Source: Escherichia coli
GTDB taxonomy: Bacteria; Pseudomonadota; Gammaproteobacteria; Enterobacterales; Enterobacteriaceae
Direction: 5' to 3' (one strand)
Length of the DNA stretch: 64,000 nucleotides
Assembly: GCF_030013205.1 (NCBI RefSeq)
Contig: NZ_CP122648.1
The position numbers are program-made. Shown in pieces: positions 26,601 to 29,600 of the stretch. Every line of letters begins with the position of its first letter. The stretch's first letter is position 1.

Positions 26601-29600
26601 CTTTATTCATAGAGCTATCGACTTTTTGCCCTACGCTTTCATTGGTAGTCTGCGCGTTGTTTTCCGCGTAGGCAGAGCCGGTCGCGACGGCAGAGGTCAA
26701 CATTACAGCCAGCAGAGTTTTCGAAATCTTCAGTCTTGTCATAGTCATCGATTTATTCCTGTATGTTTGCTCGTAATTTGAGCCTGGCAACACGAGGTTG
26801 CATTGCTGAATAGGGAGAGACTTCACCCTCTACAGAAGTCAATGGTCGCCATCACAAAAGCGATGGGTGATGAATAACGACCATTACAGCCTCTGAATCA
26901 GTTATTAATATCGGTAGAATGACAATCGACGGCTTTAGATACTGATATCTACGCATTGAACGGTATTTAACGCCGTCAGAAATGTCATCACTTTGTTAAA
27001 TATAGATCACAATTTTGAAACCGCTCGGGATATCAGCGAAAACATAAGCAAAAGTGAATGTTTTAAGAACATTCCGTAAGCGGCTAATAAGGAAGGGAAA
27101 TTGACAGGGCGCAGCGGCTACCGCGCCCTGGAGGCAAGAATTAATGCTCGCGGGTCTGGTGGAACTGAACGTCCGGATAACGTTCCTGTGCCAGGCGCAG
27201 GTTAACCATGCTGGTAGCGATGTAAGCGAGATTATCGCCGCCATCAAGCGCCAGTTGGCTTTCGTTCTTACGCTTGAACTCTTCAAATTTCTTCGCGTCC
27301 GCACATTCTACCCACCGGGCGGTGGCAACGTTGACTGATTCATATACTGCTTCAACGTTGTATTCGCTCTTCAGGCGCGATACCACTACATCAAACTGCA
27401 GCACACCAACCGCACCAACGATCAGGTCGTTGTTGGAGATCGGACGGAACACCTGCACCGCGCCCTCTTCGGAAAGCTGTACCAGCCCTTTGAGCAGCTG
27501 TTTTTGCTTCAGCGGATCTTTCAGGCGGATACGACGGAACAGTTCTGGTGCGAAGTTCGGAATACCGGTGAACTTCATCATCTCACCCTGGGTAAAGGTG
27601 TCGCCGATCTGAATGGTGCCGTGGTTGTGCAGGCCGAGGATATCGCCAGGATACGCTTCTTCAACGTGCGAACGGTCACCCGCCATAAAGGTCAGCGCGT
27701 CGGAGATAACCACATCTTTCGCGGTGCGCACCTGGCGCAGCTTCATGCCTTTTTCATATTTACCGGATACCACGCGCATAAACGCCACGCGGTCGCGGTG
27801 TTTCGGGTCCATGTTGGCCTGAATTTTAAATACGAAGCCGGTAAATTTGTCTTCGCTCGCTTGTACGGTACGGGTATCAGTCTGACGCGGCATCGGCGCA
27901 GGTGCCCACTCCACCAGGCCATCCAACATATGATCGACGCCGAAGTTACCCAGCGCAGTACCGAAGAATACCGGAGTGATTTCGCCCGCAAGGAACAATT
28001 CTTTGTCGAACTCGTTAGACGCGCCTTTCACCAGTTCCAGTTCGTCACGTAGCTGCTGTGCCAGATCTTCACCAACCGCAGCGTCGAGATCCGGGTTATT
28101 CAGCCCTTTAACAATACGGACTTCCTGAATCGTGTGGCCTTTACCGCTCTGATAGAGATAGGTTTCGTCTTTATAAAGGTGGTAAACGCCTTTAAACAGC
28201 TTGCCGCAGCCAATCGGCCAGGTGATCGGTGCGCAGCCGATTTTCAGCTCGTTCTCAACTTCATCGAGCAGTTCCATCGGGTCGCGGATATCACGGTCAA
28301 GTTTGTTCATAAAGGTGAGGATCGGCGTGTCGCGCAGACGGGTAACTTCCATCAGCTTACGGGTACGATCTTCAACACCTTTTGCGGCGTCGATAACCAT
28401 CAGGCAGCAGTCCACCGCCGTCAGGGTACGATAGGTATCTTCCGAGAAGTCTTCGTGCCCCGGGGTGTCGAGCAGGTTAACCAGGCAATCGTGATACGGA
28501 AACTGCATCACAGACGTAGTAATGGAGATCCCACGCTGCTTTTCCATCTCCATCCAGTCCGACTTAGCGTGCTGGTTGGAACCACGGCCTTTTACTGTAC
28601 CGGCGGTCTGAATGGCCTGTCCGAACAGCAGCACCTTCTCGGTGATGGTAGTCTTACCGGCGTCCGGGTGAGAAATAATTGCAAAGGTTCTTCTTTTCGC
28701 TACCTCTGCGGCCAAAAGGCTTGTCATAATTGTTGTCTCTTTAATTATGTACAATCATATGTACAAAGAAAAATTCATGCCGCTGATTGTACATTTTGGA
28801 GGTATCAGAGCATAGCAGAACATGATCAGTAGGTGTATTTGTAGCCAAAGAACATTTGTACATGCAGCAATCTTTGTTCTATTGACACTGTTTATTCATA
28901 CAGTTAAAAATAACACTGTATACAAACACAGTGTAGAGGGATTTTTATGCGTATTGAGATCTGCATAGCTAAAGAGAAAATGACTAAAATGCCAAGCGGT
29001 GCTGTGGATGCGTTAAAGGAAGAATTAACTCGACGCATCAGTAAGCGTTATGACGATGTAGAGGTGATCGTAAAAGCCACCAGCAACGATGGCCTTTCTG
29101 TTACGCGCACCGCCGATAAAGATTCAGCTAAAACTTTTGTTCAGGAAACTCTGAAAGATACCTGGGAGTCTGCTGACGAGTGGTTTGTTCATTAAGTTCA
29201 TCATCTCTGGACACCATTCACTTGTATTGACTTTAAGATCATTAAATTGTAATAATTCAAAAGGATGGGGCAGGTTTTTCCTCTTGTGCATGCAAGGGCG
29301 GCTCTGATAATGAACAGTAATATTTTACTGTTGAGCTTATGCTCACTGATCCTGCCGGGCAGGATGTTCAATGATTCCAATATATCCTGCCCCTTCCGCT
29401 TTTAAAAAGGATCTTTTATGCATGACAATATTTGGTTTACATATAAAGCCCGTATCCAAGCGCACCATCGACTAGAATGGCTTGAAAAGCACTCTCAATT
29501 TATCCTCGTTTGGTATGCTATATTGAGTGCGGTACTTTCAATTGTAACGTTGCGATTTCCAAAAGTTCTAGGAGATAACACAGATATCGTTGCGGCAATA

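What the first reader, a model, noticed from the sequence alone, without database searches (positions are those of the whole stretch)
28916..29195. SOS-controlled dinI-like gene directly upstream of the RT module
A perfect LexA box (CTGTATACAAACACAG) lies 16 bp upstream of an 82-aa DinI-like ORF, and the RT-module leader begins immediately after it. Read-through or co-regulation would tie RT-module expression to DNA damage or prophage induction. The same region is divergent from the chimeric prfC promoter.
Basis: partly seen in the sequence, partly recalled or inferred. Interest (0 to 1): 0.4.

Follow-up and report, generated by a model that had tools for sequence, protein, structure and literature searches.

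The report
SOS-controlled prophage dinI gene hosting DRT10
This is an ordinary, widely shared prophage copy of the DNA-damage gene dinI, switched off by two LexA repressor sites, and a known anti-phage reverse-transcriptase system (DRT10) with its own promoter has been inserted between the gene's stop codon and its terminator.

Summary
There are two LexA boxes, not one: 28888-28903 and 28916-28931. They bracket a near-consensus promoter (TTGACA-18-AAAAAT) just upstream of an 82-aa DinI-family ORF (28947-29195).

The 315-bp unit from the -35 hexamer to the stop codon is a self-contained cassette. About 1,600 of 5,426 complete E. coli genomes and many lambdoid phages (cdtI, mEp460, Stx phages) carry it. 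In all 17 copies examined box 2 is kept, and 16 keep box 1.

[quoted passage not shown] DRT10 was described in 2025-26. The ncRNA has its own promoter, conserved in position, also in unrelated genomic contexts that have no dinI or LexA box.

No terminator separates dinI from DRT10. The terminator that normally follows dinI now lies after the RT gene (31381-31416). SOS read-through into DRT10 is therefore physically plausible. Nothing shows it is required or selected.

The space downstream of dinI is a cargo hotspot carrying toxins, effectors and other defence genes in either orientation.

Verdict: a known kind of element. The co-regulation idea is permitted but unproven.

The parts
28666..28679 (.). 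att core (GGGTGAGAAATAAT) inside the 5' end of prfC. To its right, the first ~16 prfC codons, the ATG at 28727 (- strand) and the upstream DNA are phage-derived. A second copy of the core lies near 53519.
   Evidence: Three-way alignment with K-12 yjjG-prfC and the int-side junction.
28882..28911 (+). dinI promoter: -35 TTGACA, 18-nt spacer, -10 AAAAAT (or 17 nt and TAAAAA).
   Evidence: Consensus scan, 10 of 12 matches. The same site is annotated as 'promoter' in phage mEp460. Homology between prophages at different att sites starts exactly here.
28888..28903 (.). LexA box 1 (CTGTTTATTCATACAG), in the promoter spacer.
   Evidence: Kept in 16 of 17 cassettes.
28916..28931 (.). LexA box 2 (CTGTATACAAACACAG), over the predicted transcription start.
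   Evidence: The CTG-N10-CAG arms are kept in 17 of 17 cassettes.
28947..29195 (+). DinI-like family protein, 82 aa. Ribosome-binding site AGAGGGA at 28935-41.
   Evidence: Pfam PF06183 E 1.5e-19. PDB 1GHH E 2.9e-13. RefSeq WP_001217550.1 'DinI-like family protein'.
29227..29256 (+). DRT10's own promoter: TTGACT, 18 nt, TG-extended AATAAT.
   Evidence: The -35 is invariant, and an extended -10 ends 4 nt before the ncRNA model start in most of 21 loci from unrelated contexts.
29263..29399 (+). DRT10 ncRNA, about 137 nt: a basal stem carrying four stem-loops.
   Evidence: Fold -54 kcal/mol, z -4.1. The covariance model hits 21 loci, always just upstream of SLATT. 27 of 39 pairs show compensatory changes, and 96% of cells pair against 47-57% in slid controls.
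29418..29969 (+). SLATT_5 two-transmembrane effector of DRT10.
   Evidence: Pfam SLATT_5 E 4.8e-28. PADLOC RTasSLATT E 7.9e-57.
29947..31317 (+). UG17 reverse transcriptase (DRT10 RT). Its start overlaps the end of SLATT.
   Evidence: PADLOC RT_UG17 E 5.9e-159. Pfam RVT_1.
31381..31427 (+). Intrinsic terminator: a 10-bp G+C-rich stem followed by UUUUUAUAUUU. It is homologous to the terminator that follows dinI directly in cargo-free prophages. It is the first strong + strand terminator after the dinI promoter.
   Evidence: Alignment A8. Fold -21.3 kcal/mol, z -3.6. My own terminator scan.

Best explanation
The region is a self-contained, SOS-regulated dinI-like cassette. It sits at the att-proximal end of a large family of lambdoid prophages.

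In an undamaged lysogen, LexA dimers occupy two operators. One lies in the promoter spacer and one over the start site, and together they shut the promoter. DNA damage activates RecA, LexA cleaves itself, and the promoter fires. The 82-aa DinI-like protein is then made and, like E. coli DinI, binds and modulates RecA filaments through its acidic C-terminal helix.

The stretch between this cassette and the tail-fibre genes is a cargo hotspot. Here a 2.1-kb DRT10 defence cassette (own promoter, ncRNA, SLATT, UG17 RT) has been inserted into the dinI 3' untranslated region. It lies between the stop codon and the dinI terminator.

DRT10 is therefore expressed from its own promoter at all times. During SOS it probably also receives read-through transcripts from the dinI promoter. 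That extra input is a by-product of where the cassette landed, not a demonstrated design feature.

Shown here: the sequence elements, their conservation, the junctions, and the absence and displacement of the terminator. Inferred: LexA binding, SOS induction, RecA binding, read-through.
For: Two LexA boxes with a promoter.

The -35-to-ATG block is nearly invariant in 10 cassettes whose overall identity falls to about 71% and whose upstream flanks are unrelated. The boxes are kept in 16 and 17 of 17 copies.

DinI family membership.

Prophage dinI homologues with a LexA box 19 bp from the ATG are induced 4.6- to 23-fold by nalidixic acid in Salmonella (PMC8072944). LexA-dependent dinI operons exist in the Gifsy prophages (PMC3121763).

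Homology to other phages stops at the dinI stop codon. Fourteen contexts carry cargo in either orientation, or none.

DRT10 identity (PMC12632851 and 10.64898/2026.04.29.721553). ncRNA covariation. Own promoter conserved in position.

No terminator between dinI and SLATT, and the dinI terminator homologue sits after the RT. 1,454 genomes have dinI contiguous with that terminator, and 181 have the dinI-DRT10 junction.
Against: No experiment here shows LexA binding, SOS induction or read-through.

The LexA matrix rests on boxes recalled from memory.

The -10 hexamer is only 4 of 6.

All four co-directional cargos seen downstream of dinI (DRT10, a TIR-RT, a 377-aa ORF, BP-4795 ORF84) lack an intact intervening terminator. 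Most convergent or empty sites keep it. That pattern hints the read-through may be exploited rather than accidental.

The role of prophage DinI is unknown; deleting it in the Gifsy prophages had no effect on induction.
Confidence: 0.72

Rival explanations
1. Functional SOS coupling. The dinI promoter acts as a second, damage-inducible promoter for DRT10, and for other co-directional cargo at this site. Defence output would then rise during DNA damage or prophage induction, and the arrangement would be maintained by selection.
For: No terminator or Rho-type stretch between dinI and SLATT. DRT10 sits upstream of the displaced dinI terminator. 181 of 187 E. coli genomes with this DRT10 keep the junction, across three att sites and 94-100% sequence variants. 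Four of four co-directional cargos lack an intact dinI terminator, and one of them is another anti-phage RT. In the Gifsy prophages dinI is the first gene of a LexA-controlled operon.
Against: DRT10 has its own strong promoter, conserved in position. Published DRT10 systems defend from native flanks in uninduced cells, and the ncRNA is reported as independently transcribed. No dinI or LexA box occurs at 40 other UG17 loci or at the closest relatives. The linkage in E. coli fits one insertion event spread by recombination between flanking phage homologies. dinI is a pseudogene in the ST131-type variant. A 5'-extended precursor may not yield functional ncRNA.
Confidence: 0.2
2. The LexA boxes also govern the divergent, phage-supplied prfC promoter, putting release factor 3 under SOS control in lysogens.
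For: prfC's native promoter and first ~16 codons are replaced by phage DNA. The boxes lie 160-200 bp upstream of the prfC ATG, on the divergent side.
Against: The only - strand promoter candidates are weak (8 of 12) and lie at 28726-28783, more than 100 bp from box 1. The dinI cassette starts exactly at its -35 in prophages at yecD and dusA. The 28728-28881 segment is therefore a separate module specific to prfC integrants.
Confidence: 0.04
3. Gifsy-type induction module: dinI heads a LexA-controlled operon whose downstream gene is a small antirepressor that triggers prophage induction.
For: There is a precedent in Gifsy-1, -2 and -3.
Against: Nothing resembling a small antirepressor ORF follows dinI. 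The next elements are the DRT10 promoter and ncRNA. The prophage repressor at 46488-47180 has an S24 self-cleavage domain, so it needs no antirepressor. Cargo-free relatives run straight from dinI to a terminator.
Confidence: 0.02

Closest known systems
E. coli chromosomal dinI (SOS regulon; PDB 1GHH)
   Same: Same fold family and length. The C-terminal acidic helix TWESAD(D/E)WF is conserved. A LexA box lies close to the ATG.
   Different: It falls below NCBI's equivalog cut-off (73 against 111 bits), so it is a paralogue and not the orthologue. It is prophage-borne and has two strong boxes.
Gifsy-1/2/3 prophage dinI homologues (Salmonella), the first genes of LexA-controlled dinI-antirepressor-irsA operons
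   Same: A prophage dinI with a LexA box about 19 bp from the ATG, experimentally damage-inducible. Downstream genes are co-transcribed (PMC3121763, PMC8072944).
   Different: It sits at the att-proximal end, not next to the replication genes. There is no antirepressor or irsA. The downstream passenger is a defence system with its own promoter. The prophage repressor is self-cleaving.
DinI-like gene of phages cdtI (gp30), mEp460 (gp21), PhiR63_1, 2H10 and Stx phages
   Same: The same cassette at 90-99% DNA identity, in the same position next to attP/int. The promoter is annotated in mEp460.
   Different: Those phages carry other cargo (cdtABC, cif, nleH, nleC, pin) or none, usually after the dinI terminator. 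Here DRT10 lies before it.
DRT10 / UG17-A defence system (Tang et al. 2025; Sanchez-Nieto et al. 2026)
   Same: ncRNA, SLATT_5 and an overlapping UG17 RT. The ncRNA is about 137 nt with a basal stem and four stem-loops. It has its own promoter. Close relatives of this RT and SLATT are in the published homologue table.
   Different: It is nested inside an SOS-controlled dinI transcription unit. Neither paper contains the words dinI, LexA or SOS.

Membership tests
DinI-like family (Pfam PF06183) | Match to the family HMM above the curated cut-off, over the full ~80-aa length | tested here: met
   70.5 bits against a cut-off of 24.2; profile positions 1-63 of 63.
DinI-like family (Pfam PF06183) | C-terminal acidic amphipathic helix that contacts RecA (E. 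coli DinI ...ETWESADDWF) | tested here: met
   [10 protein letters not shown] aligns to that helix in 1GHH.
DinI-like family (Pfam PF06183) | Orthology to chromosomal DinI (NCBIfam equivalog NF007893) | tested here: not met
   73.2 bits against a cut-off of 111. It is a paralogous prophage clade.
DinI-like family (Pfam PF06183) | Binding to and modulation of RecA filaments | not testable with these tools
   Needs biochemistry.
LexA (SOS) regulon member | CTGT-N8-ACAG operator overlapping the core promoter | tested here: met
   Two boxes, in the spacer and over the predicted +1.
LexA (SOS) regulon member | Operator conserved across diverged orthologous promoters | tested here: met
   Boxes kept in 16 and 17 of 17 cassettes, while the flanks are unrelated.
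LexA (SOS) regulon member | LexA binding and induction by DNA damage | not testable with these tools
   The only precedent is in the Salmonella Gifsy dinI homologues.
Gifsy-type LexA-controlled antirepressor operon | A small antirepressor gene directly downstream of dinI | tested here: not met
   No such ORF is present, and the resident CI has an S24 domain.
DRT10 (UG17) defence system | UG17-clade RT next to a SLATT_5 protein | tested here: met
   RT_UG17 E 5.9e-159 and RTasSLATT E 7.9e-57. The genes overlap by 23 nt.
DRT10 (UG17) defence system | Structured ncRNA immediately upstream of SLATT | tested here: met
   Covariance model hits in 21 loci. 27 of 39 pairs show compensatory change.
DRT10 (UG17) defence system | Tandem-repeat cDNA synthesis and phage defence | not testable with these tools
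   Shown for homologues in the two preprints, not for this locus.

The most novel reading that the evidence does not exclude
The dinI 3' untranslated region of this lambdoid prophage family serves as an SOS-inducible expression slot. Co-directional cargo that lands between the dinI stop codon and its terminator is boosted by LexA-controlled read-through when the cell's DNA is damaged or the prophage is induced. Such cargo includes DRT10 here and a TIR-domain anti-phage RT in strain WL7562. This would tie a telomerase-like defence system, whose activation threshold depends on ssDNA metabolism (SbcB, SSB-like triggers), to the RecA/LexA ssDNA sensor.
Probability: 0.2. Interest if true: 0.55.

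Novelty: new member of a known kind. Interest (0 to 1): 0.28.

Why it matters
The dinI-like gene alone adds nothing new. It is an annotated family, and LexA control of prophage dinI is documented in Salmonella.

What is mildly useful is the map. A compact SOS-promoter-dinI-terminator unit marks a cargo hotspot in lambdoid prophages found in about 30% of complete E. coli genomes. In 181 genomes a DRT10 system sits inside that transcription unit.

If read-through matters, DRT10 dosage would change during SOS or prophage induction. Published work suggests dosage sets a toxicity and activation threshold. That is a cheap, direct experiment in strains such as IHE3034 or ST131.

Tried and rejected
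Rfam scan of 28700-31800 at E <= 1: no family. The DRT10 ncRNA is not in Rfam 15.

I tried to find out whether this exact locus is one of the tested Eco1-3 DRT10 systems. The supplement holds close homologues in its locus table, but the plasmid sequences are not in the stored text.

Literature searches for a described dinI/tail-fibre defence hotspot, or for SOS data on DRT10 or SLATT, returned nothing relevant. The EHEC radioresistance preprint concerns chromosomal dinI only.

The tool's terminator scan misses hairpins with loops longer than 8 nt. It therefore overlooked the dinI terminator family. I found that family through alignment A8 and confirmed it by folding and by my own scan.

Rho-dependent termination: no 78-nt window between 29180 and 29300 has a C/G ratio above 1.1, so there is no positive evidence. 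It is not excluded.

Comparing promoter and ORF decay in the ST131 pseudogene variant was uninformative: 4 of 65 against 19 of 241 substitutions.

A shared LexA-prfC promoter was rejected on distance and modularity.

Full report
**Context.** The window is E. coli chromosome (yjjV-yjjU-ytjA-osmY-prfC) carrying a lambdoid prophage in the 5' end of prfC. Alignment with K-12 places a 14-bp att core, GGGTGAGAAATAAT, at 28666-79 and again near 53519. The first ~16 prfC codons (MTSLLAAEV...) and everything upstream of the ATG at 28727 are phage DNA, so 'chimeric prfC' is correct. Only about 24.8 kb lies between the cores, against 47 kb for phage cdtI, so the prophage is probably a deleted remnant (inference). 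Its integrase is at 52053-53276, and its CI-like repressor (HTH plus S24 peptidase) is at 46488-47180.

**The observation.** The reported box CTGTATACAAACACAG is at 28916-31, with 15 nt between it and the ATG of an 82-aa ORF (28947-29195) that has a good ribosome-binding site, AGAGGGA.
- The ORF is a DinI-family protein: Pfam E 1.5e-19.
- It aligns over its full length to E. coli DinI (1GHH, E 2.9e-13), including the RecA-contacting C-terminal helix.
- It falls below NCBI's equivalog cut-off for chromosomal DinI, so it is a prophage paralogue.
- Together with a perfect -35 TTGACA (28882-87) and a -10 ending at 28911, the layout is textbook. One operator fills the spacer and one covers the start site.
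- CTGT-N8-ACAG occurs 4 times in 64 kb against 0.7 expected.
- A matrix built from E. coli boxes that I recalled from memory (approximate) ranks the two sites 2nd and 3rd in the window, inside the range of real boxes.

**The cassette is modular and conserved.** Megablast finds the 28760-29195 segment in about 1,800 of 5,426 complete E. coli genomes and in 93 phage records, including cdtI, mEp460, 2H10, PhiR63_1 and Stx1/Stx2 phages.
- In prophages integrated at prfC, yecD and dusA, the upstream flanks are unrelated, and similarity begins exactly at the -35 hexamer.
- Across ten cassettes whose overall identity falls to about 71%, the -35-to-ATG block is almost invariant.
- In 17 copies, box 2 is always present and box 1 is present in 16.
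- mEp460's depositors annotated this promoter.
- Prophage dinI homologues with the same geometry are damage-inducible and LexA-dependent in Salmonella.
- I therefore regard LexA control of this gene as very likely, though it is untested here.

**What lies downstream.** Similarity to other phages stops at the dinI stop codon. A 200-nt junction probe matches fully in 181 genomes and only up to the stop codon in about 1,400 others. Fourteen contexts were inspected:
- No cargo, four contexts: mEp460, 1720a-02, A20, 1424KP.
- Convergent cargo, six contexts, including cdtCBA/cif/nleH, nleC, eaaC and BRO-N.
- Co-directional cargo, four contexts: DRT10, a 'TIR domain-containing anti-phage reverse transcriptase', a 377-aa ORF, and BP-4795 ORF84/nleA.

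This is a cargo hotspot between dinI and the tail-fibre genes.

**The RT module is DRT10.**
- The RT matches PADLOC RT_UG17 at E 5.9e-159, and the upstream protein is SLATT_5/RTasSLATT.
- UG17 with SLATT and an ncRNA was named DRT10 in 2025-26. It is a telomerase-like, protein-primed tandem-repeat cDNA system whose activation depends on SbcB and on phage SSB-like proteins.
- The 'leader' folds as published, with a basal stem and four stem-loops (-54 kcal/mol, z -4.1).
- A covariance model built from seven relatives finds it in 21 loci, always just upstream of SLATT.
- 27 of 39 pairs show compensatory changes, and 96% of cells pair against about 50% in slid controls.
- A TTGACT-18-TGtAATAAT promoter lies at 29227-56. 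In relatives from a Klebsiella island, a Xenorhabdus prophage, an Enterobacter island, Photorhabdus and Pseudomonas, an (extended) -10 ends at the same distance (4 nt) before the model start, although the upstream sequences are unrelated.
- DRT10 therefore carries its own promoter. This fits the report that the ncRNA is independently transcribed.

**Is DRT10 tied to SOS?**

Against a designed link:
- None of 40 species-representative UG17 loci has a DinI homologue within 4 kb. Only one CTGT-N8-ACAG occurs in 323 kb, and it is 2 kb away.
- The closest relatives (83-84% RT identity) have other neighbours.
- In the ST131-type prophage at yecD, dinI is frameshifted, carries a premature stop and is truncated, while DRT10 is intact.
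- The DRT10 papers never mention dinI, LexA or SOS.

For physical read-through:
- No intrinsic terminator lies between the dinI stop and the SLATT ATG.
- That stretch is unstructured (z -0.16) and has no C-rich, G-poor run.
- In cargo-free and most convergent-cargo prophages, a strong hairpin with a U-tract follows dinI at +63 to +104 (for example mEp460, A20, PhiR63_1; -16 to -19 kcal/mol). 1,454 genomes have dinI contiguous with it.
- In the window, the homologue of that element lies after the RT gene, at 31381-31416 followed by UUUUUAUAUUU (-21.3 kcal/mol, z -3.6).
- Similarity to foreign DRT10 modules runs from the dinI stop codon to the RT stop. The 2.1-kb cassette therefore sits inside the dinI 3' untranslated region.
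- The other three co-directional cargos also lack an intact terminator after dinI. The TIR-RT junction removes the hairpin, and the 377-aa ORF context keeps the hairpin but loses the U-tract. The sample is too small to call this selection.

**Conclusion.** The finding is real and ordinary in kind: a LexA-repressed prophage dinI cassette. The co-regulation idea is neither refuted nor established. But DRT10 does not depend on dinI, and the association is confined to one phage family, consistent with one insertion spread by recombination. I put physical read-through on SOS induction at roughly 50-60%. I put functional, selected coupling at about 20%. A regulatory link to prfC is unlikely: candidate prfC promoters are weak and lie more than 100 bp from the boxes, and the segment between is a separate module specific to prfC integrants.

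Noticed in passing
window 46697-46716: The strongest LexA-type box in the whole window is TACTGTATGTAAAAACAGTA, one base different from the umuDC box as I recall it. It lies inside the CI-like repressor gene (46488-47180), in the linker between the HTH and S24 domains. The same immunity region occurs at 92-98% identity in mEp460, PhiR63_1, SfII and some Stx2a phages. Its purpose is unknown.
   Followed up: partly
window 28748-28862: Four copies of the palindrome TGTACA (at 28748, 28760, 28788 and 28857) lie in the ~150 bp between the prfC ATG and the dinI -35. This segment is present only in prfC-integrating phages. They may be integrase arm-type or other recombination-protein sites.
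   Followed up: no
L065 (E. coli WL7562) 3352-5574: At the same prfC prophage site, dinI is followed on the same strand by a 'TIR domain-containing anti-phage reverse transcriptase'. The junction lies inside the last dinI codons, and no terminator intervenes. This is a second, unrelated defence RT in the same slot.
   Followed up: partly
L004/L005 (ST131-type prophage at yecD) 4752-4999: dinI is a pseudogene here: a 1-bp insertion, TGG>TAG, and a 12-bp 3' deletion. The promoter, both LexA boxes and DRT10 remain intact. This variant has 94.5% identity to the window and is found in about 70 genomes.
   Followed up: partly
E. coli genomes in general (e.g. near K-12 position 304,229): A ~150-bp remnant matching the dinI 3' end plus its terminator (85-87% identity, unannotated) is present in 5,244 of 5,426 complete genomes.
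   Followed up: no
window 28913-28934, - strand: The extended palindrome of LexA box 2 (ACACTGT...ACAGTGT) followed by TATTTTTAA scores as a terminator-like hairpin on the - strand. It could stop antisense transcription heading toward prfC.
   Followed up: no
L053/L056/L058, ~60 bp upstream of the DRT10 -35: The Klebsiella, Xenorhabdus and Enterobacter DRT10 modules share a conserved segment upstream of the promoter (GGACAAGTCCTTCGGTA(A/G)CGTAAGTTTAC). Its 3' part (TAAGTT) coincides with the E. coli junction at the dinI stop codon.
   Followed up: no
window 28680-53518: Only about 24.8 kb separates the two att cores, roughly half a cdtI-type genome. The J gene appears truncated, and the immunity and replication genes follow soon after it. 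The prophage is probably defective.
   Followed up: partly
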